The notes: generated by a model not told the origin, from the letters alone. Counted from the stretch's first letter, positions 13,428 to 55,262 are shown. The stretch is 64,000 bases of DNA from Patescibacteria group bacterium (GCA_038065315.1 JBBTRF010000001.1:592458-656457); one strand, 5' to 3'. Translations and numbers: made by a program.

Positions 13428-13437
13428 AGGCACTGTG

Positions 13438-13522
13438 CGGAGGGGGTGAGATTCGAACTCACGATGCCTTTCGGCATGCCGCATTTCAAGTGCGGTACGT
13501 TAGACCACTCTGACACCCCTCC
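13438..13522 (-). tRNA. tRNA-Ser (anticodon TGA), type II with long variable arm; D-arm pairs poorly
   Basis: manual fold of reverse complement: acceptor GGAGGGG/CCCCTCC, anticodon stem CCGCA/TGCGG loop CTTGAAA, T-arm GTGAG-TTCGAAT-CTCAC. Confidence 0.6.
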
Positions 13523-14496
13523 CTGATACGCTTGTGCTGCCTATGTCGTTGTGGATTTGAACTCCCGACAACCTCCATATACTTGCATATTTCATTGAGA
13601 TTTTCAAGCTGTACGGCCTTGCCGCCCCTCCGGATCTTTGGATGTAAATCGAGAGAGGAAAGTATTTCGTAAAGCTGCTCGATGAGCCCGGGTATATAAA
13701 TGGTGATGTTTAATCTCGCGTAAGAATACTTCCTGTTTTTGTACGAAGAATGAGTCTCCAAAAAGATGCATCCGTCGGTGTCCAGGGCACCCCGCAGGCA
13801 AGCTTTTCGATACTCTTGATTCGCCATAATCCATTCCGGAATTCGCGCATCAGATGTTATTTTACTTCCTACCGAAAAACCACATTCTTTCATGAAAAAG
13901 AGTACGCATTCTCGGCTCGATATTCGGACGTCGCAAGCGCCGTGATTTTCTCGATCGTGCAGGCTGACAGGGATTCCGAAAAGATCTTTGGATAGCGTTT
14001 GAACATATTTTGCATAAGCTCGTTCCTCTTTTGAAAGGGTAATAGTGATCTGATACGGGTTTATGCCGCCGTCACCCAGGATGATTCCTGCGAGTTCGGC
14101 AAGACGGGTGCTATGCTCGGGAGTCTTCATGGTGTGTTTGAAACGCTTTTCGTGCCGACCCTTTCTTTGCCACCAGTCCACCCACGCTTGTTTTCGAACG
14201 GTCTCGCTCACCGGTACGCGGGAGTACTTGGCGATCAAGCCTTCTCCGCCTTTGCTTGAAATGCTCGCTAGATGTTTCTTTTGGTCGAAGGAGGGAAGCC
14301 CTTTTGGCGCAGCTACACCACTCACTATTTCGATTTGTTTTGCTCTAGCTGCATATAGTGGGTAGCGGCCTTCGCGGTATTCTCCCAGTGTTCGTGGATG
14401 GACACCGAGTCGGTGTGCGAATTCGAACAGACTGCCTTTAAATTCAGCCAAAGCTTTTGCGACAAACCTCTTCTGTATATTAGATATATCAGCCAT
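13486..14496 (-). CDS. LAGLIDADG-family homing endonuclease-like protein with N-terminal HTH
   Basis: LAELAGIILGDGG and GALDTDGCIF motifs; 3' end overlaps tRNA-Ser by about 37 nt. Confidence 0.7.
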   Translation of the reverse strand: MADISNIQKRFVAKALAEFKGSLFEFAHRLGVHPRTLGEYREGRYPLYAARAKQIEIVSGVAAPKGLPSFDQKKHLASISSKGGEGLIAKYSRVPVSETVRKQAWVDWWQRKGRHEKRFKHTMKTPEHSTRLAELAGIILGDGGINPYQITITLSKEERAYAKYVQTLSKDLFGIPVSLHDRENHGACDVRISSRECVLFFMKECGFSVGSKITSDARIPEWIMANQEYRKACLRGALDTDGCIFLETHSSYKNRKYSYARLNITIYIPGLIEQLYEILSSLDLHPKIRRGGKAVQLENLNEICKYMEVVGSSNPQRHRQHKRIREGCQSGLTYRT

Positions 14497-14541
14497 GCAT
14501 CCTATTATACCAAAATCATCAGGATGGAGTAGAATGGTCGC

Positions 14542-14925
14542 ATGCGTCACCTAGGTATCGATTTCGGCAAAAAGCGAGTGGGGGTGGCCCTTTCGGACGA
14601 GGCAGGCAATTTTGCTTTGCCGCATAGTGTGCTGGCCAACGATGCGCACCTCGTCGAGCAATTGAAGGCCTTGTGTGCCGAGCAGTCTGTTGGGACGATT
14701 GTGATGGGGGAGTCGAAGGATTTCAAGCAGGTGGCCAATCCAATCATGAAGGCGGCGCTGGTGTTCAAGGCCGAGTTGGAAAAGGCGACTGGCTTGCCGG
14801 TGCATCTGGAGCCGGAATTCATGACCTCGGCCGAAGCGGAGCATCTCCAAGGGAAAAATGCGATGCTCGACGCTTCGGCCGCTGCTCTCATCCTGAAAAG
14901 CTACCTAGAAAAGCATCGGGGCTAA
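14542..14925 (+). CDS. ruvX: Holliday junction resolvase-like protein YqgF/RuvX
   Basis: MRHLGIDFGKKRVGVALSD... RNase H-like fold signature. Confidence 0.8.
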   Translation: MRHLGIDFGKKRVGVALSDEAGNFALPHSVLANDAHLVEQLKALCAEQSVGTIVMGESKDFKQVANPIMKAALVFKAELEKATGLPVHLEPEFMTSAEAEHLQGKNAMLDASAAALILKSYLEKHRG

Positions 14926-39603: not shown

Positions 39604-39757
39604 CCATATTTATCTTCACACCACGCATCTCTCGCATAGTTGACTTTTTATGATATTCGTGATAGTAAGATAGACAGATTCCCTTCGGGAATGCTCCTTG
39701 CCACGGGTCAGTGGTGTTCGGTCGGCTCCACCTCGGTTTCAACACAGGAGGCTCATT

Positions 39758-40540
39758 ATGTCGGAAGAAAATCATCTTAAGATCGTCCAACTCAACATCT
39801 GCCGCGGGAAACACCCGCAGGCGATGGAGTTCATCAAAGCCAATCGCGACAAGTTCGACGCATTCCTCCTCCAGGAGGTCGTTGAGCACAACCAGATCCA
39901 GCTTGCTCGGGACTTTCGGAACGCATACTTTGTTCCAATGACGAAGGTCTGGGACGGTATCAGTGAAACCCAGGGCCGCTGGACTACCTCGGGTGTCGGC
40001 ATCTACACCAACCTGCCGATGACTTCCGTTGCCGCCCACTATTATGTCGGCGAATACGGCCGGCTTCAGCATCTCGACGACACCTCGCTTGAGCGCATCG
40101 ATGCGACAAAGAGTCGCGTCGTCGCTGTTTGCGACATCGCGATAGGGAGTATCGGTTATCGCCTCGCCACTACGCATTTCACTTGGGTGCCGAAAGGGGA
40201 GCCAAGCGACTTTCAGCGTGCTGATGTTTGGCGGATGGCGCAGATCTTGAACGGCCTGGGAGAGTTCGTTTTTTGTGGGGACTTCAACTTTCCCCGCGGC
40301 GGCGAGATCTATCAGAAGCTGCTTGCCTTGACGAGTCTGCACGCCGCAGTGCCGGCCAGGTTCGACAATACCCTCGATCCAGAACTTCACAAGCTGAATG
40401 GGAAGGTGAAAGCGATGATTGACCACATCTTTGTGGGCGTCGTCGGGTATGAGGTTTATGATGTCGAGCAGGTGTTCGGTCTCAGTGATCACGGCGCATT
40501 CACCGCGAAGGTGCGCGAACGTGTCGGCTCGATGCCTTGA
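39758..40540 (+). CDS. endonuclease/exonuclease/phosphatase (EEP) family protein
   Basis: AGGAGG RBS; LKIVQLNI N-terminus and SDHGAF C-terminal motif. Confidence 0.75.
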   Translation: MSEENHLKIVQLNICRGKHPQAMEFIKANRDKFDAFLLQEVVEHNQIQLARDFRNAYFVPMTKVWDGISETQGRWTTSGVGIYTNLPMTSVAAHYYVGEYGRLQHLDDTSLERIDATKSRVVAVCDIAIGSIGYRLATTHFTWVPKGEPSDFQRADVWRMAQILNGLGEFVFCGDFNFPRGGEIYQKLLALTSLHAAVPARFDNTLDPELHKLNGKVKAMIDHIFVGVVGYEVYDVEQVFGLSDHGAFTAKVRERVGSMP

Positions 40541-40572: not shown

Positions 40573-40605
40573 GCCGCGCCCTTAAATGGACGCGGTCTTC
40601 TTTTT
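40573..40605. terminator. bidirectional terminator hairpin CCGCGC..GCGCGG + T-run
   Basis: between convergent genes. Confidence 0.5.
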
Positions 40606-41296
40606 ATAACACCGAATCGATATCTTTGAACGAGGTAAGTTGCGGACAGTCGATGTTGGCGTCCTGCGCTTTGCAATACACAAGTATAGAATCGATACCC
40701 AGAGACTTCGGCACCTCGTAGTCGGAGCGCGGGCGATCACCGATGTAGAGGAAATTCTCTGGCGAGAGGTCGGGGTAGAGGGCCATCCATTGTTTGTAGA
40801 GGTCGCCGTTTGGCTTTGAGCCGTCGTCGTTGGTAAGGATGTGCCCGAATAGGCCGTGGCTCATGTCGAGCTTGCCGAGCTTTTTGTTGGCGTTGGTACG
40901 GTTTGATCCTGTGAGGATGTCGATGTTTTGGTATTTTGCTTTCAGACGCTTCAAGATATTGAGGGTTTCTTGATCCGGCACGAGATAGTCGTCGATATCG
41001 GCGCGCTCGAGGGCTTCCTGAACGATGTCTTGGTGATTAGGAACCCCAAGCATTTTCAGTGTTGTTGAGCCGCCGAGGCCGCGACCTTCTTTGTACAGGT
41101 CTTTGAACATTTTCTCCGCTTCGGTGAGTGAGACGCCCTTGTGTTCGCTGATCTTGTGGTAAATATAGATCTGAATCGCCTCGTCGATAAAGCTCGACTT
41201 GGGGTAGAGGGTCTGGTCGAGGTCGAAGCCGATGACTTTGATTTTTGAGTAGTCTTTTCTCATTTCGCCTTTCATGCTATTTAGTATACCCGACAT
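40604..41296 (-). CDS. HAD-superfamily hydrolase (phosphatase), subfamily IA-like
   Basis: GFDLDQTLY motif I; start may be 41275. Confidence 0.7.
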   Translation of the reverse strand: MSGILNSMKGEMRKDYSKIKVIGFDLDQTLYPKSSFIDEAIQIYIYHKISEHKGVSLTEAEKMFKDLYKEGRGLGGSTTLKMLGVPNHQDIVQEALERADIDDYLVPDQETLNILKRLKAKYQNIDILTGSNRTNANKKLGKLDMSHGLFGHILTNDDGSKPNGDLYKQWMALYPDLSPENFLYIGDRPRSDYEVPKSLGIDSILVYCKAQDANIDCPQLTSFKDIDSVL

Positions 41297-43721
41297 AAAA
41301 CACCGTGAGGTTGCCAGTCTTCGCCTTGAGCTGCTTTGAAAATTGGCCGCAGAGGTAGTTGAGTGCTTCGGTGTCCGCTTTCTGCTTGGCGAGCGCGCGA
41401 TTCATGAAGACCGCCGTGGCATGGAGCTTGTTGCCAAGGACGTTGGCCTGGAAGAAGGCGAGCTGATCGGCTTGGGGGTCGCTTTTGCCGGCTTGGTATT
41501 CGGAAAGGACGGGGTTGTTGTGCATCACGCCCTTCTGCTTGTAGTAGTCGATGGCGCGGGCAACGGTGTCGACGCCTTCGAAGTCATAGAGTCGGTCGAG
41601 GAAAGACTTTTTTGGTCGCTTGGCGACGGGCTTGATAGGGGAATAGCTGTACGCGACCACGCCGCTGGTCATGTCGGGTTTTGTTACGGCCGTTTTTGTT
41701 TTGCCCGTATTTTTTGCTTCGCCAAGACTATATGGCCCGCTTTTGGTGTCGAGGTCGTCGGTCGGCTTCGAAGGCTCCATGAGGATCTTCTTGGTGCGCT
41801 GTTCTTCGGTCAAAAGGAGAATGTTGCCGCGATTGGAAAGCATGTACATGTCGCCGGACTTCAGCTTCAGGGCTGTGCGAATCGCGGTGACATAGGCGTC
41901 GTGTAGGCCAAAGATGTTTTCCGGGTAGGCGTTGACCATGTTGTGAGCACGGGCGATGTGGAAGGAATGCATTTTGCCCTTCTTGGGAATGAAAATGTCA
42001 TACACGAGACACGGGTCGTGGGTGTATTTGCGTTTCCCACTGCCTGGGTCGATGTAGCTGCCCATGTCAACGGTCGGGTCGAAGCGGGCGATGATCGAGG
42101 CCTTTCGCGGGTTTTTCTTGAGCGTCTTTTTGGTTTCCAATAGCTGATCCACGCCAAAGTGCTGGCGGGTGCGCTCACCGTAGCTATAATCGCCATCGTG
42201 GTCGAAGCGGAGCAGCTGTTTTTTGTAGTTGGCGCGCATCTCCGCGGTAGACTGGTCGCCTTGTTTGTAGAAAGCGGGGAGGGTGGTGAGGGATTTTGCA
42301 GAATTGCGATAGATCGCCAGAGCGACACCGCTGCGCGCGGTACCTTTCTGCCTGTCTCCGTGTTCGTGGGTGAGACCTTCGGTGTAGATCTTCATGAGGA
42401 TGTTTTTGTGCACGCCGAGGAATGAGTCGCCGTCGGATACCAAAAGAGGGAGGTCGGTCTTGTTGATTCGGAAGATGCCTGAAAAGTCCTGGATGAAGGC
42501 GTAGTTGAGCTTTGCGGCGAGTGTGGCGCGACCGATCTGTCCGCCGACATCCACACGGTGGAGGAAGTCCATCTCGTAGTCCTCAAAACGGTTTTTCTCG
42601 GCGAGCCAGGTGAAAATCGCGCCGATCGACTTCGAGCGCAGGTCGAACACCTCCTCGCAAACATCGAAGGCGAGACACATCACTGAGACGCCGCCATCGC
42701 GCACGCTCATTTTGTAATAATATTTCTTGTCCGTGACCAGCGACATGTTGGACTCGATCGGGATCTGCTTTTTGCTGATGATTTTCGCGGTCTGGAAGCT
42801 CGATTTGAGGGAGATGCGGTTTTTGATTTCGGTGTCGACGCGCGCGATCTCGGCGCCGAGCACGAGCTGTTGAAGTGGGCTCAACAGGCGCTTGTCGGCG
42901 CCGAGAAAACGCATGATCGAGTATTCGAGGCGGAATTCATCGGCTCCGACCACGAAAAATGTCTTGCCACCCACTTCGAGGTCGACACGAATCTGCCCCT
43001 TCTCCGCACTCACGCAGAAAGGCATTTTTTCAGAAACAGTTGCCTCGCCGAGCGCGATCTTTGGCGGCTGCAGGTGTTGGAACTCCTTTGGGTCGAGGTC
43101 AATGAGCCCTTTTTTCTTGCTTGGCTCTTTGGCGAGCAGGGAGATGAGCTGGTTGAGGGTGTCGTAGTAGATGGATTTCTTCTCAGAAGCTGTCTTCAGA
43201 AACGTATGTACCTCAGCACTTACTTTTGGCTTTAGCCATTCCAGATAGTCAGTAACGACTTGCTTTGAATAATCATTTCGATACATGAAAAGCGGCAGCA
43301 CAATGATATTTTCGCGGAAGGCATCGATGATCTTCTTCGATAAATTGGGAAAATGAGCCGAAGCCGCCTTGCCACCGACAATATAGTTGCCGGGCTTTTG
43401 CGCATCGACACCATTCTGGATTGCGAGAAGGAGGTTGGTGCTCGGCGAGAAGGTGAGTGACTCTTCGGAGAAGAGTACGAGGAAACGGATGGTCGGATGG
43501 GCGAGACAATTCAACACCATGCGCTCCGTGCCGTCGCGGCTCACAATCAAAGCCCCTAGTGCCGAGACGTGCGCACGATTTTTCTCTTCGATCTCGTTGA
43601 ACACCTGTCCGGGTGCGGAGGTGTTGGTGCAAATGCCGATCTGTCCCTCAGCGCCTTCGCCTGGGGTCACGAGGATCGCGTCGACAATCGGGAATTGAGT
43701 TGTGGCGGGTTTGGTTACCAT
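41277..43721 (-). CDS. 814-aa multidomain protein; C-terminal half is a truncated thymidylate synthase/dNMP hydroxymethylase (ThyA)-family fold; N-terminal about 450 aa unknown
   Basis: by eye vs E. coli ThyA: GERTRQHFGVDQLLETKK ~ DRTGTGTLSIFGHQMRF..LVTTKR; LKKNPRKASII ~ LKNDPDSRRIIV; DPCLVYDIFIPKKGKMHSFHIARAHN ~ [26 protein letters not shown]; region between TTKK and NPxxR blocks deleted. Confidence 0.6.
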   Translation of the reverse strand: MVTKPATTQFPIVDAILVTPGEGAEGQIGICTNTSAPGQVFNEIEEKNRAHVSALGALIVSRDGTERMVLNCLAHPTIRFLVLFSEESLTFSPSTNLLLAIQNGVDAQKPGNYIVGGKAASAHFPNLSKKIIDAFRENIIVLPLFMYRNDYSKQVVTDYLEWLKPKVSAEVHTFLKTASEKKSIYYDTLNQLISLLAKEPSKKKGLIDLDPKEFQHLQPPKIALGEATVSEKMPFCVSAEKGQIRVDLEVGGKTFFVVGADEFRLEYSIMRFLGADKRLLSPLQQLVLGAEIARVDTEIKNRISLKSSFQTAKIISKKQIPIESNMSLVTDKKYYYKMSVRDGGVSVMCLAFDVCEEVFDLRSKSIGAIFTWLAEKNRFEDYEMDFLHRVDVGGQIGRATLAAKLNYAFIQDFSGIFRINKTDLPLLVSDGDSFLGVHKNILMKIYTEGLTHEHGDRQKGTARSGVALAIYRNSAKSLTTLPAFYKQGDQSTAEMRANYKKQLLRFDHDGDYSYGERTRQHFGVDQLLETKKTLKKNPRKASIIARFDPTVDMGSYIDPGSGKRKYTHDPCLVYDIFIPKKGKMHSFHIARAHNMVNAYPENIFGLHDAYVTAIRTALKLKSGDMYMLSNRGNILLLTEEQRTKKILMEPSKPTDDLDTKSGPYSLGEAKNTGKTKTAVTKPDMTSGVVAYSYSPIKPVAKRPKKSFLDRLYDFEGVDTVARAIDYYKQKGVMHNNPVLSEYQAGKSDPQADQLAFFQANVLGNKLHATAVFMNRALAKQKADTEALNYLCGQFSKQLKAKTGNLTVFYVGYTK

Positions 43722-44641
43722 TTTTTGCTGCCCCAGCTGTTTGGCAGGAGGGTTTCTATCGAATACGTATTATACACGGGCTGCTTTTTGGCGAAGCAAT
43801 ACACTTGGAGCTTCCAGCCGTAGCGCTTTGAAAGTTCGGTGATAAATTGTCGGCACGGGCCGCAGGTTTGGCAGGGTTCGGCCTCGAATTTGTCGGAGAC
43901 GACGGCGAGATGAGTGAGCTTTTCTTCTTTGGCCATCAATGCGGCGAGGATAGCGCCCATCTCGGCGTGCACCATGAGGCGTTTGTCCGGCGAGGAATAT
44001 TGGCCGGAATAGAAGATTTTGCCGCTTTCGGTGAGAACGGCTGCGCCATATGAGCTAGCACCTTGGTAGGTGGTGAAGGCAAGCTCGAGACCTTTCAGAG
44101 CGTATTTTTTCAGTGCCTGCGCGATGGCGGCCTCATCGGTGTTTTTGCTATTCTTGGCAACCTTTGCCCAATTGGCTTTCGGTGCGACTTTTTTCAATTT
44201 CAAATCGCTTGGCTCCGGGTGGTAGAAGGGGATGGCATCGAGGACATTTTTCACCTTGAAGACAGTCGTACCTTCGGCATCGAGGACGCTGTAGGCGATC
44301 TTGGTGCCAGTGCGGTTGGCGAAATCGGCCATGACTTTGAGTGCGAGCGGCGAAATGATCGGCTTGGTTGAGTCGATGAGAGTGGCCACTTCGACGATCT
44401 GGAAATCGCGATGCTGCACCGCGATGAGCAGAGCCGTCTGTTCCGAAGTGACATCTAGGAGGTTGGTGTCCGACTCAGCCTTTCCGCCGAAGTAGCTCTT
44501 GCCGCTCTTCGAGATCGCGACCGATGCGGCATTGCCATTACCATCCGTGCGCGCCTTTTTGGTGACCGAAAGGAAGAGCGCCTCGTGGAGCGACTTCGCA
44601 AGCTTGTTTGCTGCGGCAGGTTTGTTAATAGATTTCGACAT
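43715..44641 (-). CDS. tandem-domain cytidine/deoxycytidylate deaminase-family protein
   Basis: zinc motifs HAEMGAI ... PCQTCGPCRQF; two CDA-like halves. Confidence 0.7.
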   Translation of the reverse strand: MSKSINKPAAANKLAKSLHEALFLSVTKKARTDGNGNAASVAISKSGKSYFGGKAESDTNLLDVTSEQTALLIAVQHRDFQIVEVATLIDSTKPIISPLALKVMADFANRTGTKIAYSVLDAEGTTVFKVKNVLDAIPFYHPEPSDLKLKKVAPKANWAKVAKNSKNTDEAAIAQALKKYALKGLELAFTTYQGASSYGAAVLTESGKIFYSGQYSSPDKRLMVHAEMGAILAALMAKEEKLTHLAVVSDKFEAEPCQTCGPCRQFITELSKRYGWKLQVYCFAKKQPVYNTYSIETLLPNSWGSKKW

Positions 44642-45524
44642 TGCTTCGGAGCTTGCTGACCATGAGGCCGACAGTCTCCCAATCGTAATGGAGGATCTTC
44701 TTGAGGAAATCGTTCAAAAGGTGAATCTTGTCGCGTTCAAGTCGATAGAACATTTTTTCAGCTTTCTTGCTCGAGAGGCGGATGGTCGGGCGCAGCGGCG
44801 TCGGAAAGGCGTAGTAGGGGATGAGTGGCTGACGCTTGTCTTTGGCTTCGACGACGATCACCGTGATCGGCTTGTTGAGGGTTTCGAGGGCATAGTCGAG
44901 ACGATGTGCACCATCGCAAATAATATGAAAAGAATGCGGACCAGTGTAAGGGAGGCCGTAGTTGATGATCGGTGCGTTGGAGTTGAAGGTTGGCAGGTGA
45001 GTGATCTTGCTCACTTCATCGATATAGAAATTGTGCAGCTCCATGTTGCCGAGGTGGTGCATGTTGCTCTGCGCGTCGCGTGCGTAGGTGCCACTGAAGC
45101 GTTTTGAAAGTTTCTCAAGGTCGATGAAGCCATTTTGCAGATCGTACGTGTGTCTCTCAATAATCGGCGGGAGCACGTGGTAGACACCGCGATCTTTCCA
45201 GGTGTACTCGACTGCTCCCTTCAGATTGGTAATCGACATCTTTTGCTTTTTCAGGAATCGATCCACTTCGGCCATAATCTCGATTTGGTTTTGGTAGATA
45301 GTGGGCTGAGGGGTGAAGAGTGGCTCACGTCCCTTGCCGACTTGAATCTCGGCCGGCATACCGATGTGCTTTGGCGGATAGACGGTGGCGAGGCGAAACG
45401 TCGCATTCCGATACGGCTTCACTTTCTCGCCATTCGAAGCGTAGAGACCTCGAAAGACGATGTTTTGCATCATTTTTTCCAACTCTTTGAATGGGATGAT
45501 TTTTTCGAGTTTGAGGCTATGCAT
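44625..45524 (-). CDS. hypothetical protein with ParB/Srx-like motif (HIICDGAHRLDYA)
   Basis: first gene of overlapping minus-strand operon; motif resemblance only. Confidence 0.45.
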   Translation of the reverse strand: MHSLKLEKIIPFKELEKMMQNIVFRGLYASNGEKVKPYRNATFRLATVYPPKHIGMPAEIQVGKGREPLFTPQPTIYQNQIEIMAEVDRFLKKQKMSITNLKGAVEYTWKDRGVYHVLPPIIERHTYDLQNGFIDLEKLSKRFSGTYARDAQSNMHHLGNMELHNFYIDEVSKITHLPTFNSNAPIINYGLPYTGPHSFHIICDGAHRLDYALETLNKPITVIVVEAKDKRQPLIPYYAFPTPLRPTIRLSSKKAEKMFYRLERDKIHLLNDFLKKILHYDWETVGLMVSKLRSNVEIY

Positions 45525-45583
45525 GTGCTCACACTATAGCTTTTTCACTTGGAGGGGGCAACTTGACAGACAGGGGTGAATAA

Positions 45584-46852
45584 GTGACATTGTACACACG
45601 ACATTTGAAAGACACCGAGATCAAAAAGTTGCTGAAAGCCGAGAAAACCCGCCAAAAGAAGGTGGTGAACTTGATTGCTTCTGAAAATTATGTTTCCAGC
45701 GACGTTTTGAAGGCGCTCGGCTCCGAGCTCACCAATAAATATGCTGAGGGCTATCCAGGGAAGCGTTATTATGGCGGCAATGAATATGTCGACCAGATCG
45801 AGACGCTTTGCAAGGAACGCGCACTGAAGCTTTTTGGTCTTGATGCAGGTTCTGTTGGTACGCAGGCGAGAAAGTGGCATGTGAATGTGCAGCCGCTTTC
45901 CGGCTCGCCGGCCAACTTGGCGGTGTTTCTCGGACTGGTGCCTCCGGGCGGCAAAATCATGGGCATGTCCCTCGCGCATGGTGGCCACCTCACTCATGGG
46001 CAGAAGGTTTCGATCACAGGAAAGATGTGGACGCCCGTACATTTTGGTGTTGATCAAAAGACCGAGCTCATCGACTACGCTGCGCTCAAAGCACAGGCTA
46101 TTGCTGAAAAACCGGCAATTATTGTGGCGGGCTTCACGGCGTATCCGCGCATTGTTGATTTCAAACAGTTTCGCGCTGTCGCTGATGCCTGTGGTGCCAT
46201 CCTCATGGTGGACATGTCGCATTTCGCTGGCCTCGTGGCAGGTGCTGTGTACCCGAGTCCGTTTGCATACGCTGATGTCGTGACAACCACCACGCACAAG
46301 ACGCTCCGCGGTCCGCGTGCGGCGCTCATTTTTGTACGCAAGGACAAAAGCGGGCTCAATCCTAAAGGCGAGTCCGTCTCTTTTGCCGATCTCATCGACA
46401 AGGCGGTGTTCCCAGGCTTGCAGGGCGGTCCACATCTCAACCAGATTGCCGCGGTGGCCGTCGCACTGAAAGAAGCCGCTACTCCCGCATTCCAAAAATA
46501 TGCTGCCCAAGTGGTGCAGAATGCCAAAGCCCTCGCCAATGAACTCTCCTCGCTCGGCTGGCGCGTGATCTCCGGTGGTACCGATTCGCACCTTGTGTTG
46601 ATCGATACGTGGATGGGCGGAAAAAAGGGAGGTGCCGACGGCAAGATGGGCGGTATCACCGGCGAAGAGGCGAGCGAGCGATTGGAAAAAGCCGGCATCA
46701 TCGTGAACAAGAATGCGATTCCATTCGACACGCGACCACCGATGGATCCATCAGGTATTCGCCTCGGAAGTGCTGCTGAAACTACTCGTGGCAAGAAAGA
46801 AAAAGACTTCCGCGCGTTGGCCCAAAAGATAGACAAGATTCTCAGAAAGTAG
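45584..46852 (+). CDS. glyA: serine hydroxymethyltransferase
   Basis: PLP/THF enzyme signature LIASENY...HLTHGQ...TTTHKTLRGPR. Confidence 0.9.
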   Translation: MTLYTRHLKDTEIKKLLKAEKTRQKKVVNLIASENYVSSDVLKALGSELTNKYAEGYPGKRYYGGNEYVDQIETLCKERALKLFGLDAGSVGTQARKWHVNVQPLSGSPANLAVFLGLVPPGGKIMGMSLAHGGHLTHGQKVSITGKMWTPVHFGVDQKTELIDYAALKAQAIAEKPAIIVAGFTAYPRIVDFKQFRAVADACGAILMVDMSHFAGLVAGAVYPSPFAYADVVTTTTHKTLRGPRAALIFVRKDKSGLNPKGESVSFADLIDKAVFPGLQGGPHLNQIAAVAVALKEAATPAFQKYAAQVVQNAKALANELSSLGWRVISGGTDSHLVLIDTWMGGKKGGADGKMGGITGEEASERLEKAGIIVNKNAIPFDTRPPMDPSGIRLGSAAETTRGKKEKDFRALAQKIDKILRK

Positions 46853-47702: not shown

Positions 47703-48674
47703 ATGTCGGTTGTCGGTAGAGAGAAGACCACTCTTAAAAAACACCACGCACAAATGACACACCAAGTTGTTCCCAACATCGCCGCATCAATGCCGTGCCC
47801 ACTCACTGGATTGCCCTTCGCGCTCCGGTTCTACCTCACCATGGTGGCCGAGACGAAAGGCGTCCTCGCCGCCGGCTACACCGGCATCCACGGCCAGGGC
47901 TATGCCGCCGCCTTCCTGAAACTCATCGGTGCCACGGCACAGGAGGTGCAAGACTTCTTCGCATCCCAGCCCAGCTACCTGGCTTACGCGCAGTGGCTCC
48001 GGCAGCGTTTGCAGGCCGGTAGCGTGTCCAAGCTGGCGATCCGCAAATTCGGGATCCTGGTCAGGACCTACCAGCATCGCGGATCTGCCCTCGAAGAAGC
48101 CTTGGCGGATGCCGGCATGACGGCTGAATCTGCGGGGACGGCCACGGCCGATATCCTGAACAGCCTTGGTGACATGCGGACCCGCTTCAGTCTCGGTCAA
48201 GGTGGCGCGCCGATCGCTGTTTACGGCATCCCCCTGACGCCCGCCAACAAGCGCTGTCCCTTTACCGGCCTGCTGGTCGCCGAGCGCTTCTACGAGGTTG
48301 CCCGGCTTGAGTCGGAAGGATACCTCGCCGAAGGCTACACTGGCGTTCACGGCAAGGGCTTCGCCGCGGTCTTCCTTGCGGCCATCAACCGCACGGCTGA
48401 CGAGGCCGACGAATTCTTCGCCGACGCTCCCAGCTACGATGCCTACGCCAACTGGGCCGCCGAGAAGCCACCTACCCGCAGTGCGCGCATCACCTTGGAA
48501 CTGGTGGTGGCCACCTACGACCACACGGGGGAGGCCCTCACCAATGCGCTCGCCGCCGCCGGTATGACGGCGGAGGAGTTGGGCAGCGAATCGGCCGAAG
48601 ACGTCAACCTCATGGAGGATGTGGCGACTTGGACTGCCGCGGTTCGTGCCATCACGCTCCCCGCCGCTGAATAG
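47703..48674 (+). CDS. high-GC hypothetical protein built from two ~150-aa internal repeats (CP(L/F)TGL...EGY(T/L)..GYTG(I/V)HG(Q/K)G(Y/F)AA(A/V)FL)
   Basis: internal duplication visible in translation; GC about 62%; start may be 47754. Confidence 0.5.
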   Translation: MSVVGREKTTLKKHHAQMTHQVVPNIAASMPCPLTGLPFALRFYLTMVAETKGVLAAGYTGIHGQGYAAAFLKLIGATAQEVQDFFASQPSYLAYAQWLRQRLQAGSVSKLAIRKFGILVRTYQHRGSALEEALADAGMTAESAGTATADILNSLGDMRTRFSLGQGGAPIAVYGIPLTPANKRCPFTGLLVAERFYEVARLESEGYLAEGYTGVHGKGFAAVFLAAINRTADEADEFFADAPSYDAYANWAAEKPPTRSARITLELVVATYDHTGEALTNALAAAGMTAEELGSESAEDVNLMEDVATWTAAVRAITLPAAE

Positions 48675-51635: not shown

Positions 51636-54600
51636 ATGAACGAGACTCCTAAAACCCCTCCCGCAAGCCCAAAAAGCCCCCACGCTGAGCGCGAGGAGAA
51701 GGTGCTGTGTTTGTGGGCGCAAGAACAAATCTTTGCTAAAAGCCTCGAAAAGGCCTCGCCAAAGGGTGAATTTGTCTTCTATGACGGCCCGCCATTTGCC
51801 ACCGGTCTGCTTCATTATGGCCACATTTTGGCAGGTACGATTAAGGACGCGATCCCGCGATACAAGACGATGCAAGGCTTCCACGTGCCGCGCCGTTGGG
51901 GCTGGGATTGCCACGGTTTGCCTGTCGAAAATATTGTCGAAAAAGAGATTGGTTTGAAGTCGAAAAAAGATATTCTCGACTACGGTATCGACCGTTTCAA
52001 TCAAGCGGCCCGCGACACCGTGCTCCGTTATGCGCACGTGTGGGAAGAGCAGGTGCCACGTCTTGGTCGCTGGGTGGATATGAAGAACGAGTATCGCACC
52101 ATGGATACTTCATACACCGAATCCGTCTGGTGGGTGTTTAAACAGCTTCATGAAAAGGGTCTGGTGTACGAGGGTTTCAAAAGCATGCACCTGTGTCCGC
52201 GCTGTGAGACGACCTTGTCGAATTTCGAAGTGAATCTCGGGTACAAGGACGTCACCGATATTTCAGTGTACGCAAAGTTTGAATTGAAAAGCGAGCCGGG
52301 AACATTTTTTGTTGCGTGGACGACGACACCGTGGACCTTGCCGGGCAATGTTGCCCTCGCTGTTGGTCCGGAGATTATGTATGCGAAGGTGAAAGTGACC
52401 GACGCAAAGACTGGCGCGGTTTCGCGAGTGATCGTGGCGAAGGAAAAGCTTGTAGCCGTGATGAAGGATGTGCCGTACGAAGTGCTTGCTGAGATGAAGG
52501 GCGCGGAATTGGTCGGCAAAGAATACACGCCGGTATTTTCATACTATATTAGCGACGAAAAGTTGAAAAATGTGCAGAACGCCTGGAAAGTATACGCGGC
52601 AGATTTCGTGACCCTCGAAAAGGGCACTGGCATCGTGCATATCGCGCCGGCGTTCGGCGAAGATGACTACCAGCTCAGTCTAAAGATGCAGCTGCCATTT
52701 ATTCAGCATGTCGGCATGAATGGCGCGTTCAAAAAAGAGGTGGCGGATTTTGCCGGCCAACAGGTGAAGCCGAAGTCAAGCGAGACCGAAAAAGACGCGC
52801 ATCAGAAGACAGACATCGAGATCATCAAATATCTGGCACAGAAGGGCACACTGTTTGCGAAGGAAAAGATCATTCACTCGTATCCACATTGTTGGCGTTG
52901 CGAGACACCGCTGCTCAACTACGCGTCTTCGTCGTGGTTTGTACGCGTGACCGATTTCAAAGACAAGCTCGTCGCGGAAAACAAAAAGGTGAAGTGGGTG
53001 CCACGAGAGGTGGGCGAAAACCGTTTTGGCGATTGGCTCGAAAATGCTCGCGATTGGGCGATCTCACGTTCGCGATTCTGGGGAGCGCCGCTGCCGGTGT
53101 GGAAGTGTCAGTCTTGTGAGCAGGTGAAGGTATTTGGCAGCACTGCGGAACTCAAGAAGGCATTGAAGCCGCGCAATACCTACTACGTGATGCGCCATGG
53201 CGAGGCGGAACACAATGTTCAGCGCATCATGAGCACTGATCTGGCAGACTGTCATCATCTCACGGAGAAGGGTCGGCGACAGGCGCTTGAGGCCGGCGAG
53301 GTTTTGAAGGACAAAAAGATCGACGTCATTTTTGCCTCACCTTTTTTGCGCACACAGGAGACCATGAAGGAGGTTTGCGAGGTGATTGGCTTTGATCACA
53401 AGAAGATTGTGAAGGATCCACGTATTGGAGAGATTCGTGCCGGCGTATTCAACGGTCGGCCGGTGGGCGAGTACCATGGCTTTTTCGGCACGGGAGAATA
53501 CGCACGCTACGTGAAGCGTCCACAAGGCGGCGAAAACTACACCGATGTTCGGGCGCGCGTCGCGGAGTTTCTCTACGACATCGATGCACGATATGAAGGG
53601 AAAAATATCTTGGTCGTGACGCACGATTCACCAGCGTGGTTCTTGTCTGCTGAAGCTGAGGCGATGAACAGTGAGCAGGCAAACACGCTCCGCGGCACAA
53701 CACCATTTTTCCTAAAGAATGCCGAAGTGCGACCGCTGCCTTTCGCGGCGCTATCTTGCAATGCCGAGCGTAAAGTGGATCTGCATCGACCGTTTATCGA
53801 CGGTGTCGCTTTGTTGTGCGCCTGCGGCGGCGACATGAAACGCGTGGCGGAAGTGTTTGATTGCTGGTTTGAGTCCGGCTCAATGCCATATGGCGAAGCG
53901 CGTTATCCGGCGGAGCAAAAGAATGGTTTCCGACCGGCGCGAAACGTGTTTGATCGATGGTTTGGCCGATTCACTGGCCGCGTGAAAAGATATCCAGCTG
54001 ATTTTATTGCCGAAGGTCTCGACCAGACCCGCGGCTGGTTCTACTCGATGCTCGTGCTCGGTGTCGCTCTGTTCGGCAAGTCGCCATACAAGCAGGTGGT
54101 GGTGAACGGTCTCATCCTCGCGGAAGATGGTCGCAAGATGTCGAAGAGCCTGAAGAATTATCCCGATCCGATGAAGGTTGTCGATGCGTATGGTGCCGAC
54201 GCCCTGCGTTTTTATTTGCTCAACTCGCCGGTAGTGCGCGGCCAAGATCTCTGCTTCTCGGAGAAAGGGGTCGATGAAGTGGCAAAAAAGCTCCTTGGTC
54301 GTCTCGACAATGTCCGTTCTTTCTATGAGCTCTACGCCGATGCTTCTGTCGTCGCTTCTCGAAATTCAACAAACGTCCTCGACCGCTGGATCCTCGCACG
54401 TCTCGCAGGGCTGGTCAGCGAAGTCACTGATGCGTTTGAAGGGTACGAGCTCGACAAGGCTTGCCGACCATTCAATGGTTTTGTCGATGATCTGTCGACT
54501 TGGTATCTGCGCCGATCTCGCGATCGTTTCAAAAATACCGATGGCGCTGCTGCTCCGGAGGCCGTGGCCGACAAAAAAGCTGCACTCGAGACCACTCGTT

Positions 54601-55262
54601 TTGTATTGCGAGAAGTGGCCAAAGTCCTCGCGCCTATCATGCCGTTCTATGCAGAGTCGCTGTATCAGTCTTTGAAGGCTACTGGTTGTGTCGATGATAT
54701 TTCTCTCCTGAGTGTGCATCTCGAGAGCTGGCCGTCAGTCGCTGAGGTTTGTAAGCAATCGACAAAGGCGCAGGCACAGATTGTGGCCGACATGGCCGAT
54801 GTTCGCTCGACAGTTTCTCTTGGTCTCGAGGCACGTATGCAAGCGAAGATCAATGTTCGACAGCCGCTTGCGCGATTGTCGGTGAAGAAATTGCCAAAGG
54901 GTGTCGATGCGGCGGAACTCATCGAACTCGTGAAAGATGAAGTGAATGTAAAGAAGGTCGATGAGAGTGTGTCGATAGACGGCGCAGTACTTCTCGATAC
55001 CGTACTTACTCCGGAGCTCAAGGAAGAGGGTATTGTTCGCGACATGATTCGATCGGTGCAAGATCTTCGCAAGCAGTCTGGTCTCAATCCAAACGATCGA
55101 GTGGATCTCTTTGTTGATACCGATGAGGCAGGCAAGCGCTTCCTCGAGAAGTACCAGGGGGTCTTGTGCAAAGTGACCGGCGTGAAGCAGGTGCGATGGG
55201 AGATCGTACAGCAAGGAGTTCATTTGGAGTTCGACGGATTGAGGTTTGGTTTGAAGCTGTAA
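51636..55262 (+). CDS. ileS: isoleucine--tRNA ligase (type 2) with inserted histidine-phosphatase (PGAM-like) domain
   Basis: GPPFATGLLHYGH HIGH, KMSKS; about 200-aa insert with RHGEAEHN between the conserved zinc-ribbon region and DLHRP block. Confidence 0.85.
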   Translation: MNETPKTPPASPKSPHAEREEKVLCLWAQEQIFAKSLEKASPKGEFVFYDGPPFATGLLHYGHILAGTIKDAIPRYKTMQGFHVPRRWGWDCHGLPVENIVEKEIGLKSKKDILDYGIDRFNQAARDTVLRYAHVWEEQVPRLGRWVDMKNEYRTMDTSYTESVWWVFKQLHEKGLVYEGFKSMHLCPRCETTLSNFEVNLGYKDVTDISVYAKFELKSEPGTFFVAWTTTPWTLPGNVALAVGPEIMYAKVKVTDAKTGAVSRVIVAKEKLVAVMKDVPYEVLAEMKGAELVGKEYTPVFSYYISDEKLKNVQNAWKVYAADFVTLEKGTGIVHIAPAFGEDDYQLSLKMQLPFIQHVGMNGAFKKEVADFAGQQVKPKSSETEKDAHQKTDIEIIKYLAQKGTLFAKEKIIHSYPHCWRCETPLLNYASSSWFVRVTDFKDKLVAENKKVKWVPREVGENRFGDWLENARDWAISRSRFWGAPLPVWKCQSCEQVKVFGSTAELKKALKPRNTYYVMRHGEAEHNVQRIMSTDLADCHHLTEKGRRQALEAGEVLKDKKIDVIFASPFLRTQETMKEVCEVIGFDHKKIVKDPRIGEIRAGVFNGRPVGEYHGFFGTGEYARYVKRPQGGENYTDVRARVAEFLYDIDARYEGKNILVVTHDSPAWFLSAEAEAMNSEQANTLRGTTPFFLKNAEVRPLPFAALSCNAERKVDLHRPFIDGVALLCACGGDMKRVAEVFDCWFESGSMPYGEARYPAEQKNGFRPARNVFDRWFGRFTGRVKRYPADFIAEGLDQTRGWFYSMLVLGVALFGKSPYKQVVVNGLILAEDGRKMSKSLKNYPDPMKVVDAYGADALRFYLLNSPVVRGQDLCFSEKGVDEVAKKLLGRLDNVRSFYELYADASVVASRNSTNVLDRWILARLAGLVSEVTDAFEGYELDKACRPFNGFVDDLSTWYLRRSRDRFKNTDGAAAPEAVADKKAALETTRFVLREVAKVLAPIMPFYAESLYQSLKATGCVDDISLLSVHLESWPSVAEVCKQSTKAQAQIVADMADVRSTVSLGLEARMQAKINVRQPLARLSVKKLPKGVDAAELIELVKDEVNVKKVDESVSIDGAVLLDTVLTPELKEEGIVRDMIRSVQDLRKQSGLNPNDRVDLFVDTDEAGKRFLEKYQGVLCKVTGVKQVRWEIVQQGVHLEFDGLRFGLKL

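What the first reader, a model, noticed from the sequence alone, without database searches (positions are those of the whole stretch)
40604..46852. Candidate pyrimidine C5-modification operon with a giant ThyA-like fusion protein
Four minus-strand genes with overlapping stops and starts, divergent from glyA (SHMT, source of 5,10-methylene-THF): a ParB/Srx-motif protein, a tandem-domain cytidine/dCMP-deaminase-family protein, an 814-aa protein, and a HAD phosphatase. The C-terminal half of the 814-aa protein aligns block-by-block to thymidylate synthase (DRTGTGT-like, TTKK, NPxxRR-like, PC(H)-QFYV-GKLSCQ-YQRS-D-PFNI blocks). It retains the catalytic Cys but lacks the ~70-residue segment of ThyA containing folate-contacting residues. 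It also carries a ~450-aa unknown N-terminal region. This resembles gene sets used for 5-hydroxymethyl/5-methyl pyrimidine nucleotide synthesis (e.g. phage dCMP hydroxymethylase pathways). It may be an unusual thymidylate or modified-base route in a genome with minimal metabolism.
Basis: partly seen in the sequence, partly recalled or inferred. Interest (0 to 1): 0.75.

Follow-up and report, generated by a model that had tools for sequence, protein, structure and literature searches.

The report
Giant thymidylate-synthase-like operon of ultra-small microbes
This is a real, strongly conserved four-gene operon, shared by ultra-small bacteria (Patescibacteria/CPR) and ultra-small archaea (DPANN), built around an 814-residue thymidylate-synthase-like fusion protein; it probably makes thymidylate (or a related 5-substituted uracil nucleotide) by a route nobody has tested.

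Summary
Four translationally coupled minus-strand genes lie divergent from glyA: a ParB/Srx-fold protein (Pfam ParB-CE), a tandem cytidine deaminase, an 814-aa protein and a HAD phosphatase.

The same four-gene cassette occurs in almost every one of about 57 loci from Patescibacteria and DPANN archaea. dUTPase and SHMT genes are often adjacent. In a distant relative the cytidine deaminase is replaced by a dCTP deaminase. ParB-CE accompanies even remote relatives of the big protein.

Best reading (about 0.45): a self-contained module that turns deoxycytidine compounds into dUMP and then dTMP, using a non-canonical TS. The product (methyl, hydroxymethyl or hydroxyl), the cofactor and the ParB-CE role are inferred, not shown. 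Whether these genomes also carry thyA or thyX could not be tested.

No paper describing the system was found. It is a new variant of a known kind.

The parts
44625..45524 (-). Gene 1: ParB/Srx-fold protein of the Pfam ParB-CE family (299 aa). It has an N-terminal beta-rich domain and a ParB/Srx nucleotide-binding core with an invariant CDGxHR motif (C203-R208). Predicted NTP-dependent phosphotransferase or NTPase.
43715..44641 (-). Gene 2: tandem cytidine-deaminase-fold protein (308 aa). The N-terminal half (aa ~15-150) is a degenerate pseudo-domain without zinc ligands. The C-terminal half (aa ~170-308) is catalytic, with H224-A-E226 and PCxxCGxCRQF.
   Evidence: PF00383, E 2.7e-10. TIGR01354, E 4e-15, below the cut-off. 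Best PDB sequence matches are tetrameric cytidine deaminases. Motif conservation in 52 orthologues. N-half against C-half by hhalign: 96%, E 2e-9.
41277..43721 (-). Gene 3: 814-aa multidomain thymidylate-synthase-like protein (sub-domains listed below).
   Evidence: 144 full-length homologues, 50-93% identical. AF2 pLDDT 82.8. 129 near-invariant positions across 53 orthologues, including archaeal ones.
43227..43685 (-). MtrA-like Rossmann-type domain (aa ~13-165) of gene 3. The cobalamin ligands of true MtrA (His84, Glu54) are replaced by invariant Phe91 and by Ser/Asn61.
42807..43076 (-). Middle domain M1 (aa ~216-305) of gene 3: a beta-meander followed by two long helices. No recognisable family.
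   Evidence: AF2 secondary structure, pLDDT about 90. No significant hhalign match to the other domains or to DUF4346.
42477..42743 (-). DUF4346 domain (Pfam PterinBD-DUF4346, aa ~327-415) of gene 3.
   Evidence: hhalign 98.5%, E 2.8e-15, to the DUF4346 segments of relatives that hit PF14251 directly. Only 1 of 27 orthologues hits PF14251 itself, at E 0.028.
41742..42422 (-). Catalytic thymidylate-synthase-fold domain (aa ~434-660) of gene 3. Equivalents to E. coli ThyA: Cys571 = C146, Arg591 = R166, Asn602 = N177, Tyr514 = Y94, Gln/Glu502 = E58 (by eye), His568 = L143, Asn594 = D169, Glu601 = F176. The W80/W83 loop is deleted.
41280..41657 (-). C-terminal domain (aa ~689-814) of gene 3. Its topology (helix, beta-hairpin, long helix, strand) mirrors the TS core, but 'DPQxD' stands where 'HDPCL' would be. 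Possibly a degenerate second TS half acting as an intramolecular pseudo-dimer partner. This is an inference.
   Evidence: AF2 secondary structure, pLDDT above 90. Colinear but weak hhalign to aa 493-634 (E 0.008, probability 5%). Invariant H734, N735, N736, Q758, N760, D783.
40604..41296 (-). Gene 4: HAD-IA phosphatase (230 aa). Its nearest characterised relatives are nucleoside-monophosphate phosphatases.
   Evidence: PF13419, E 1.5e-12. TIGR01993 pyrimidine 5'-nucleotidase, E 2e-15, and TIGR02254 YjjG, E 2e-8, both below their cut-offs. PDB sequence matches to XMP phosphatase 7ef6 and SSM1 3onn. Catalytic motifs conserved in 51 orthologues.
45525..45583 (.). 59-nt divergent intergenic region between gene 1 and glyA. 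It must hold both promoters and is too short for a riboswitch.
   Evidence: No Rfam match there.
45584..46852 (+). glyA (serine hydroxymethyltransferase), source of 5,10-methylene-tetrahydrofolate. A divergent neighbour here and in about 17 of 57 related loci.
   Evidence: PF00464, E 1.8e-157. Synteny.

Best explanation
The four genes form a self-contained deoxypyrimidine conversion module that supplies thymidylate in genome-reduced, nucleotide-scavenging cells.

**Proposed steps.**
1. The tandem cytidine deaminase converts deoxycytidine (or cytidine) to the uracil nucleoside. In other lineages a dCTP deaminase and/or a neighbouring dUTPase provide the uracil nucleotide instead.
2. The ParB/Srx-fold protein uses a nucleoside triphosphate to phosphorylate a pathway intermediate. 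The substrate would be deoxyuridine (giving dUMP) or the product monophosphate. Its constant pairing with the big protein also fits a role as an obligatory partner subunit.
3. The TS-fold domain of the 814-aa protein attacks C6 of dUMP with Cys571 and transfers a one-carbon unit to C5.
4. The carbon donor is a reduced pterin, plausibly 5,10-methylene-THF from the neighbouring SHMT. It would be held not by the classical ThyA folate pocket, which is largely gone, but by the fused MtrA-like and DUF4346 domains.
5. The HAD enzyme is a pyrimidine (deoxy)nucleoside-monophosphate phosphatase. It would either feed the deaminase (dCMP to dC) or oppose the kinase in a substrate cycle that sets the dTTP pool.
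6. The most likely product is dTMP.

**Shown here:** the folds, the catalytic residues, their conservation and the gene linkage.

**Inferred:** substrates, cofactor, product, and the role of ParB-CE.
For: **TS fold and chemistry**
- TIGR03283, E 2.4e-12. PHROG thymidylate-synthase families.
- The hhalign register places C571, R591, N602 and Y514 on ThyA C146, R166, N177 and Y94. All four are invariant in 53 orthologues from bacteria and archaea.
- Asn at the N177 position specifies uracil rather than cytosine (rule quoted in PMC13326640).

**Unit of function**
- The order ParB-CE, deaminase, big protein, HAD is kept in almost all of about 57 loci. These include 11 or more DPANN archaeal loci in otherwise unrelated surroundings.
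- The genes are translationally coupled here.

**Substrate-supply context**
- dUTPase (PF00692, E 3e-17) is adjacent in 19 of 57 loci, including archaeal L050 and the rearranged L022.
- SHMT is adjacent in about 17 loci.
- NUDIX-, MazG- and HAD-like genes are inserted or adjacent in others.
- In the distant relative L063 the cytidine deaminase is replaced by an unrelated dCTP deaminase (PF22769, E 2e-42), while HAD and ParB-CE stay. This is non-orthologous displacement of the C-to-U step.

**Family background**
- Shorter MtrA-TS(-DUF4346) proteins stand alone in archaeal genomes. NCBI and JGI name them thymidylate synthase.

**Housekeeping character**
- Identity is high: 50-67% for the big protein and 47-59% for ParB-CE, even between domains of life.
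- The cassette sits among secE-nusG-rplK, argS and ileS.
- It was not found in viral contigs.

**ParB-CE as an NTP-using enzyme**
- ParB/Srx fold, with sulfiredoxin, SbnI and free serine kinase (all phosphotransferases) among the best matches.
- Invariant DGxHR-type motif.

**HAD**
- The nearest families are pyrimidine or XMP nucleotidases.
Against: - No experiment exists, and no genome-wide check shows that thyA and thyX are absent from these organisms.
- The window protein does not reach the Pfam PF00303 threshold, nor the TIGR03283 cut-off (46.8 against 174.55 bits).
- Residues ThyA uses for folate binding and hydride transfer are missing or changed: the W80/W83 loop, F176 to Glu, L172 to Asn, D169 to Asn.
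- The water-excluding L143 is an invariant His. Polar residues at that position are typical of hydroxymethylases, so the product may not be a methyl group.
- The R126/R127 pair and Y209 are not conserved (my reading).
- The closest solved structure is a flavin-dependent hydroxylase.
- A plain thymidylate synthase should need neither a dedicated ParB/Srx partner nor a phosphatase.
- The SHMT and dUTPase adjacencies are partly inherited gene order within one bacterial class, so the counts overstate independent events.
- The deaminase is of the nucleoside (CDA) type in most loci but of the dCTP type in L063. No single role for ParB-CE and HAD fits both cleanly.
Confidence: 0.45

Rival explanations
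1. dUMP hydroxymethylase module. The TS-like domain hydrates the exocyclic methylene intermediate and makes 5-hydroxymethyl-dUMP. ParB-CE is the dedicated kinase that carries the unusual monophosphate towards the triphosphate. The deaminase and dUTPase supply dUMP. HAD and NUDIX enzymes remove competing dTMP/dTTP or dUMP. Thymine in the DNA of these cells would then be partly or wholly replaced by 5-hydroxymethyluracil or a derivative, as in Bacillus phage SPO1.
For: - The L143 equivalent is an invariant polar His568, followed by invariant Asp569, and the hydride-transfer/folate pocket is lost. The rule that a polar residue at this position goes with hydroxymethylation is quoted.
- The enzyme set (deaminase, TS homologue, NTP-dependent partner, nucleotidase, sometimes NUDIX or MazG) matches the logic of phage base-replacement systems (my knowledge of SPO1/PBS2 enzymology).
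- A dedicated ParB-CE partner is kept with the TS homologue in distant relatives too.
Against: - No relatives were found in viral contigs.
- The housekeeping location and very wide vertical conservation fit an essential canonical product better.
- The standalone short relatives lack any partner genes.
- No glycosyltransferase, DNA kinase or other downstream hypermodification gene recurs nearby.
- Many of these genomes were assembled from nanopore reads (contigs of 0.5-0.96 Mb). That argues weakly against wholesale base replacement.
Confidence: 0.2
2. Corrinoid- or flavin-dependent C5 chemistry. The MtrA-like Rossmann domain carries a prosthetic group other than a pterin. With methyl-cobamide, a methyl cation equivalent would go directly to the Cys-activated C5 of dUMP, giving dTMP without any pterin oxidation. 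With a flavin, the enzyme would reduce the methylene intermediate as ThyX does, or hydroxylate C5 as the phage 5-hydroxy-dCMP synthases do.
For: - Some short MtrA-TS relatives (P0172, P0169) keep the His84-type motif 'GxESxGHRSGEAL'.
- The best structural match of the TS domain is the flavin-dependent dCMP 5-hydroxylase 9iqc/9iqu, a compact TS fold of 217-234 residues.
- A PduO-type cobalamin adenosyltransferase recurs within 10 kb in 6 loci.
- A DHO_dh flavoprotein follows the relative in L066.
Against: - The cobalt ligand His84 and its Glu54 partner are replaced by invariant Phe91 and by Ser/Asn61. The GAIPFxEN meander motif is also lost.
- The phage hydroxylases carry Asp at the N177 position and act on dCMP, whereas this family has Asn.
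- SHMT adjacency points to methylene-pterin chemistry.
- The adenosyltransferase is more simply explained by B12-dependent ribonucleotide reductase (my knowledge).
Confidence: 0.12
3. Ribonucleotide-level or small-molecule pathway. The enzyme modifies UMP or CMP (like the CMP hydroxymethylase MilA), and the HAD phosphatase releases a modified nucleoside or base. That product would be used as a metabolite, signal or antimicrobial rather than as a DNA precursor.
For: - The deaminase is of the nucleoside type.
- Y209, which reads the deoxyribose 3'-OH in ThyA, is Leu635 (my reading).
- A terminal phosphatase fits release of a nucleoside.
Against: - The neighbours dUTPase and dCTP deaminase are specific to deoxynucleotides.
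- No glycosidase (of the MilB/BcmB type), transporter or tailoring enzymes recur nearby.
- A secondary-metabolite cluster would not be expected as a near-universal, highly conserved feature of minimal genomes in two domains of life.
Confidence: 0.08

Closest known systems
Thymidylate synthase ThyA (EC 2.1.1.45; Pfam PF00303)
   Same: - Same Pro-Cys nucleophile, R166, N177, Y94 and D105-Q equivalents, in the same order.
- Same likely substrate, dUMP, judged from Asn602 and the dUTPase/dCTP-deaminase neighbours.
   Different: - About three times longer, with MtrA-like, DUF4346, M1 and C-terminal domains added.
- The W80/W83 loop is deleted. F176, L172, D169, L143 and Y209 are replaced, and the R126/R127 pair is not kept.
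- Below the Pfam threshold.
- Always encoded with a ParB/Srx protein, a deaminase and a phosphatase.
Short archaeal thymidylate synthase (NCBIfam TIGR03283, 'thy_syn_methano', MJ0757 type)
   Same: - Best-scoring curated family for the catalytic domain (E 2.4e-12, aa 437-608).
- Also a compact TS lacking the classical folate-binding insert (my knowledge of that family).
   Different: - The score (46.8 bits) is far below the equivalog cut-off (174.55).
- The archaeal enzyme is a roughly 200-aa single-domain protein.
MtrA-TS(-DUF4346) fusion proteins of about 420-540 aa (e.g. P0173 from Nanoarchaeota, named thymidylate synthase by NCBI; P0161, P0165, P0166)
   Same: - Same three domain families, with clear Pfam hits to PF04208, PF00303 and PF14251.
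- Asn at the N177 position and a polar residue three positions before the Cys.
- One of them (L066) also has a ParB-CE neighbour.
   Different: - Domain order is MtrA-TS-DUF4346 rather than MtrA-M1-DUF4346-TS-C.
- No M1 or C-terminal domains.
- Most stand alone, without deaminase, HAD or ParB-CE.
- Some keep the MtrA cobalt-ligand His.
- None is characterised.
Phage and antibiotic-pathway TS homologues: T4 dCMP hydroxymethylase, SPO1-type dUMP hydroxymethylase, MilA CMP hydroxymethylase, 5-hydroxy-dCMP synthases (HY126 AfhB 9iqc/9iqu, RB69 gp48)
   Same: - They work together with dedicated kinases, deaminases and nucleotidases to reshape a pyrimidine nucleotide pool (my knowledge).
   Different: - Those acting on cytosine have Asp at the N177 position. 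This family has Asn.
- They are single-domain proteins.
- They are viral or secondary-metabolic, whereas this cassette is chromosomal, housekeeping-like and was not found in viral contigs.
Deoxycytidine salvage route Cdd-Tdk-ThyA of enterobacteria, and the kinase/5'-nucleotidase substrate cycles of animal cells
   Same: The proposed reaction order is the same: dC to dU to dUMP to dTMP, with an opposing nucleotidase. This rests on textbook knowledge.
   Different: - Here all steps would be encoded in one operon.
- The kinase would have a ParB/Srx fold instead of the thymidine-kinase fold.
- None of the activities has been shown.
ParB/Srx-fold phosphotransferases (sulfiredoxin; free serine kinases SerK and SbnI) and ParB CTPases
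   Same: - A DGxHR-type phosphate-binding motif.
   Different: - An extra N-terminal beta-rich domain and a C-terminal helical tail.
- No DNA-binding helix-turn-helix was detected.
- The Pfam family ParB-CE is otherwise found fused to calcineurin-like phosphoesterases (L063), and its activity is unknown.

Membership tests
Thymidylate synthase / dCMP hydroxymethylase superfamily (PF00303) | TS alpha/beta fold | tested here: met
   [not shown]
Thymidylate synthase / dCMP hydroxymethylase superfamily (PF00303) | Catalytic nucleophile Cys in a Pro-Cys motif, at the start of the central beta-hairpin | tested here: met
   C571 aligns with ThyA C146. P570-C571 is invariant in 53 orthologues.
Thymidylate synthase / dCMP hydroxymethylase superfamily (PF00303) | Score above the curated family threshold | tested here: not met
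   No PF00303 hit for the window protein at E up to 0.1. 6 of 27 orthologues hit weakly, best 3.6e-5. TIGR03283 scores 46.8 bits against a cut-off of 174.55.
Thymidylate synthase ThyA (methylating, folate-dependent) | Folate-binding and hydride-transfer elements: the W80/W83 loop, L172, F176, D169, the C-terminal lid, and hydrophobic L143 | tested here: not met
   ThyA residues 65-90 have no counterpart. F176 is Glu601, L172 is Asn597, D169 is Asn594 and L143 is His568, all invariant or nearly so.
Thymidylate synthase ThyA (methylating, folate-dependent) | Uracil-specifying Asn (N177) and phosphate-binding R166 | tested here: met
   N602 and R591 are invariant. Specificity rule.
Thymidylate synthase ThyA (methylating, folate-dependent) | Arg126'/Arg127' pair donated across an obligate homodimer | tested here: inconclusive
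   The 'NPxRAxII' block holds one conserved Arg, shifted by one position (my reading). A degenerate second TS-like half at the C-terminus may replace the partner subunit (E 0.008 only). The oligomeric state cannot be tested here.
Thymidylate synthase ThyA (methylating, folate-dependent) | Converts dUMP and 5,10-methylene-THF to dTMP and dihydrofolate | not testable with these tools
   Needs enzyme assays or complementation.
MtrA (PF04208), cobalamin-binding subunit of the methyl-H4MPT:CoM methyltransferase | MtrA-type Rossmann fold and family score | tested here: met
   [not shown]
MtrA (PF04208), cobalamin-binding subunit of the methyl-H4MPT:CoM methyltransferase | Cobalt ligand His84, its partner Glu54, and the GAIPFxEN motif | tested here: not met
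   His84 aligns with invariant Phe91 and Glu54 with Ser/Asn61. The motif reads 'AASAHFPN'.
PterinBD-DUF4346 (PF14251) | Sequence membership | tested here: inconclusive
   A direct Pfam hit occurs in only 1 of 27 orthologues, at E 0.028. However, hhalign gives 98.5%, E 2.8e-15, to the DUF4346 segments of relatives that do hit PF14251.
ParB/Srx superfamily, Pfam ParB-CE (PF24392) | Family score, ParB/Srx fold and DGxHR-type motif | tested here: met
   [not shown]
ParB/Srx superfamily, Pfam ParB-CE (PF24392) | Nucleotide binding, hydrolysis or phosphotransfer | not testable with these tools
   Needs biochemistry.
Cytidine deaminase (CDA, PF00383) | (H/C)AE and PCxxC zinc and catalytic motifs | tested here: met
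   H224-A-E226 and PCxxCGxCRQF are conserved in 52 orthologues. PF00383, E 2.7e-10. The equivalog cut-offs are not reached (56 against 113.65 bits). The N-terminal domain lacks the zinc ligands.
HAD-IA pyrimidine 5'-nucleotidases (TIGR01993, TIGR02254) | HAD catalytic motifs, and a family-level score | tested here: inconclusive
   Motifs I-IV are conserved. Scores of 57 and 34 bits are below the cut-offs of 143 and 160. The substrate is unknown.
Phage thymine-replacement systems (SPO1-type hydroxymethyluracil DNA) | Encoded by a virus, together with a TS-fold dUMP hydroxymethylase and pool-reshaping enzymes | tested here: not met
   No relative of the big protein or of ParB-CE was found in IMG/VR by pattern scan plus tblastn. 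No PHROG hit for the three partner proteins. The resemblance in enzyme logic remains.

The most novel reading that the evidence does not exclude
Many Patescibacteria and DPANN archaea lack ThyA and ThyX and depend on this cassette instead. One possibility is a third mechanistic class of thymidylate synthase: a TS-fold core whose one-carbon cofactor is held by MtrA-like and DUF4346 domains, and which needs an NTP-dependent ParB/Srx partner. The other is a system that makes 5-hydroxymethyl-dUMP, so that these cells carry a non-canonical base in place of thymine. In both cases the module has moved between the bacterial and archaeal domains.
Probability: 0.25. Interest if true: 0.9.

Novelty: new variant of a known kind. 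Interest (0 to 1): 0.72.

Why it matters
**An essential step.** Thymidylate synthesis is essential for DNA replication, and only two enzyme families (ThyA and ThyX) are known to do it. This locus encodes a deeply divergent TS-fold enzyme with a new domain architecture and three fixed partner enzymes. It is conserved in two large radiations of ultra-small, host-dependent microbes.

**Annotation.** Automatic pipelines call the protein either "thymidylate synthase" or "hypothetical". Metabolic reconstructions of these organisms may therefore be silently wrong in either direction.

**What working it out would reveal.**
- How minimal cells make or alter their thymine nucleotide.
- Which one-carbon cofactor they use.
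- What a ParB/Srx-fold enzyme does in nucleotide metabolism.
- How a four-gene metabolic module came to be shared between bacteria and archaea.

**Practical use.** It could also provide a lineage-specific target or marker for CPR and DPANN organisms.

Tried and rejected
- **Internal repeats.** hhalign between the six segments of the 814-aa protein gave nothing significant. The only suggestive result was a weak, colinear match of the C-terminal domain to the TS core (E 0.008). I report it as an inference only.
- **Cobalamin-binding MtrA.** Considered and set aside as the main reading, because His84 and Glu54 are not conserved.
- **Defence system or phage element.** No PADLOC hits. No PHROG hits apart from TS. 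No relatives in viral contigs.
- **Riboswitch or RNA element in the glyA intergenic region.** The gap is only 59 nt, and there is no Rfam match in the operon.
- **Literature.** Seven full-text searches found no paper describing the fusion, the cassette, ParB-CE or DUF4346. The library is limited to open-access papers and bioRxiv.
- **Canonical thyA/thyX.** This covers only 2-3% of each genome, so it says little.
- **ParB-CE against PDB sequences.** Only chance-level matches. The fold comparison was needed.
- **Scan of other window genes.** It showed typical Patescibacteria housekeeping genes and no further nucleotide-metabolism genes.


Full report
**1. What is in the sequence**

Region 40604-45524 holds four minus-strand ORFs of 299, 308, 814 and 230 codons. 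Their stops and starts overlap by 17, 7 and 20 nt. glyA starts 59 nt from the first gene on the opposite strand. The gap is too short for a riboswitch, and Rfam finds only tRNAs elsewhere in the window. The surrounding genes (secE, nusG, rplK, argS, ileS, recO, pilM and others) and the homologue names identify a Patescibacteria (CPR) genome.

**2. The partner proteins**

- *Gene 1* passes the Pfam threshold for ParB-CE (PF24392, 24.8 against 23 bits).
  - Its orthologues are highly conserved and share an invariant CDGxHR motif.
  - Several of these are ATP-dependent phosphotransferases.
- *Gene 2* is a tandem cytidine deaminase.
  - The C-terminal half has the HAE and PCxxCGxCRQ motifs. It resembles tetrameric cytidine (nucleoside) deaminases.
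  - The N-terminal half is a degenerate copy without zinc ligands (hhalign 96%).
- *Gene 4* is a HAD-IA phosphatase with intact catalytic motifs. Its nearest characterised relatives are nucleoside-monophosphate phosphatases.

**3. The 814-aa protein**

Evidence that it belongs to the thymidylate synthase superfamily:
- TIGR03283 (methanogen-type TS), E 2.4e-12 over aa 437-608.
- PHROG thymidylate-synthase families, E 4e-7.
- The AlphaFold model (pLDDT 82.8) gives only TS-fold proteins among the 50 listed top Foldseek hits.

Residue equivalences to E. coli ThyA, from profile alignment:

| This protein | E. coli ThyA |
|---|---|
| C571 | C146 |
| R591 | R166 |
| N602 | N177 |
| Y514 | Y94 |
| H568 | L143 |
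| N594 | D169 |
| E601 | F176 |

All of these are invariant or nearly so in 53 full-length orthologues. ThyA residues 65-90, the W80/W83 folate loop, have no counterpart.

The rule that Asn at position 177 selects uracil, and that a hydrophobic L143 excludes water, is quoted from PMC13326640. So the nucleophile and the uracil-reading residue are kept. The machinery ThyA uses to hold folate and to pass a hydride is largely gone.

The rest of the protein is not featureless:
- aa ~327-415 is a DUF4346 domain (hhalign 98.5% to relatives with direct PF14251 hits).
- aa ~216-305 (M1) matches nothing.
- The C-terminal domain (aa ~689-814) has the same helix, hairpin, helix, strand order as the TS core. 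It aligns with it colinearly but weakly (E 0.008). I read it, tentatively, as a degenerate second TS half that could stand in for the partner subunit of the normally dimeric enzyme.

**4. Comparative genomics**

- The protein has 144 close homologues of about 800 aa. All are from Patescibacteria, and they are named "hypothetical" by NCBI or "thymidylate synthase" by JGI.
- A scan of one genome per GTDB species found 56 loci. At least 11 are from DPANN archaea (Woesearchaeota, Nanoarchaeia, Iainarchaeum) at 41-45% identity.
- tblastn and ORF clustering show the order ParB-CE, deaminase, big protein, HAD in almost every locus with enough flank. This includes the archaeal loci, whose surroundings are otherwise unrelated.
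- These four are by far the most recurrent gene families in the neighbourhoods: 50-59 loci each, against 29 or fewer for anything else.
- ParB-CE is 47-59% identical across the two domains of life.
- Recurrent immediate neighbours:
  - a dUTPase (PF00692, E 3e-17) in 19 of 57 loci, including archaeal L050;
  - SHMT in about 17 loci;
  - a NUDIX-like gene after HAD in about 15 loci.
- Archaeal loci sometimes carry NUDIX-, MazG- or HAD-like genes inserted in the cassette.
- Part of the dUTPase and SHMT signal is inherited gene order within one bacterial class, so these counts are not independent events.

**5. Distant relatives**

An exhaustive profile search found 327 proteins. Beyond the core family there are two groups.

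- *Divergent proteins of 810-906 aa.* Their contexts keep the theme:
  - P0151 has ParB-CE upstream (E 4e-42).
  - P0145 has HAD and ParB-CE alongside.
  - P0157 is followed by a dCTP deaminase (PF22769, E 2e-42), a HAD, a ParB-CE and a Metallophos-ParB-CE fusion.
- *Many proteins of 420-540 aa with clear MtrA, Thymidylat_synt and DUF4346 Pfam hits*.
  - The 487-aa P0166 has a ParB-CE neighbour and a dihydroorotate-dehydrogenase-family neighbour.
  - Others (P0173, P0162, P0169) stand alone. One, from Nanoarchaeota, is named thymidylate synthase by NCBI.

Replacement of the cytidine deaminase by an unrelated dCTP deaminase is the strongest single argument that the pathway needs a cytosine-to-uracil deoxynucleotide step.

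No relative of the big protein or of ParB-CE was found in viral contigs. There were no defence-system hits.

**6. Interpretation**

What the evidence shows:
- a TS-fold enzyme with intact covalent-catalysis residues that reads uracil;
- enzymes alongside it that make uracil deoxynucleotides (deaminase, dUTPase, dCTP deaminase);
- an enzyme that makes methylene-tetrahydrofolate (SHMT);
- a nucleotide phosphatase and an NTP-binding ParB/Srx protein.

The most economical reading is a thymidylate-supply module for cells that scavenge nucleosides and nucleotides: dC to dU to dUMP to dTMP. ParB-CE would be the kinase or an obligatory partner. HAD would be the feeding or balancing nucleotidase. The MtrA-like and DUF4346 domains would take over cofactor binding. 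I give this about 0.45.

It remains uncertain for these reasons:
- The polar His at the L143 position, and the loss of the hydride-transfer pocket, fit a hydroxymethylase at least as well.
- The nearest solved structure is a flavin-dependent hydroxylase.
- A plain thymidylate synthase should not need a dedicated ParB/Srx partner.

The main rivals are:
- a 5-hydroxymethyl-dUMP pathway (about 0.2);
- corrinoid- or flavin-based chemistry on the same substrate (about 0.12);
- a ribonucleotide or metabolite pathway (about 0.08).

**7. What could not be done**

I could not test whether the genomes carrying the cassette lack thyA and thyX. tblastn over the roughly 1.2 Mb of sequence in hand found neither, but that is only a few per cent of each genome. 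I had no access to model coordinates, so domain packing is unknown.

Seven literature searches found no description of the fusion, the cassette or its domains. The existence of the curated Pfam families ParB-CE and PterinBD-DUF4346 shows that the individual domains have been noticed by curators.

**8. Verdict**

It is a new variant of a known kind: a thymidylate-synthase-superfamily enzyme with a new architecture and a fixed set of partner enzymes. It is shared by CPR bacteria and DPANN archaea and is uncharacterised. Interest 0.72.

Noticed in passing
window 51636-55262 (+): The isoleucyl-tRNA synthetase (1208 aa) carries a histidine-phosphatase domain (PF00300, E 1.4e-31, aa 517-685) inserted within its catalytic domain.
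   Followed up: no
window 47703-48674 (+): A 323-aa ORF between glyA and argS has no Pfam match. It consists of two similar ~150-aa halves, each with a 'GYTGxHGxGxAAxFL...SYxAYAxW' pattern. Function unknown.
   Followed up: no
window 12441-14550: A reverse transcriptase ORF (PF00078, 12441-13427, +) lies next to a tRNA (13438-13522, -) and a LAGLIDADG-domain ORF (13486-14550, -) whose listed start region overlaps the tRNA. Possibly a retroelement or intron remnant.
   Followed up: no
window 763-4421 (+), extending to ~6500: Type I restriction-modification methylase and specificity genes sit in a stretch of low G+C (34-41%, against about 52% elsewhere). This suggests a horizontally acquired island.
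   Followed up: no
window 39698-40540 (+): An endonuclease/exonuclease/phosphatase-family ORF (PF03372, E 1.2e-10) lies convergent with the HAD gene. It is not conserved next to the cassette in any related locus.
   Followed up: partly
related loci, e.g. L023 7676-8104, L050 6207-6632: A dUTPase gene sits directly beside the cassette in 19 of 57 related loci. It is absent from this window, where tblastn found no copy in the 64 kb.
   Followed up: yes
L040 17436-18026 and 5 other loci: A PduO-type cobalamin adenosyltransferase (PF01923, E 1e-42) recurs within 10 kb of the cassette in six Patescibacteria loci. This is probably conserved gene order, but it is relevant to the corrinoid hypothesis.
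   Followed up: partly
L061 7001-8569: A 522-aa MtrA-TS fusion from a Thermoprotei archaeon retains the MtrA cobalt-ligand His motif. It sits among a resolvase gene, a PD-(D/E)XK gene and many small unknown genes, which looks like a virus or a mobile island.
   Followed up: partly
L063 11642-14569: A 975-aa protein fuses a calcineurin-like phosphoesterase (Metallophos) domain to a ParB-CE domain. It lies directly after a standalone ParB-CE gene in the cassette of a distant relative. This hints that ParB-CE generally works with a phosphoesterase.
   Followed up: partly
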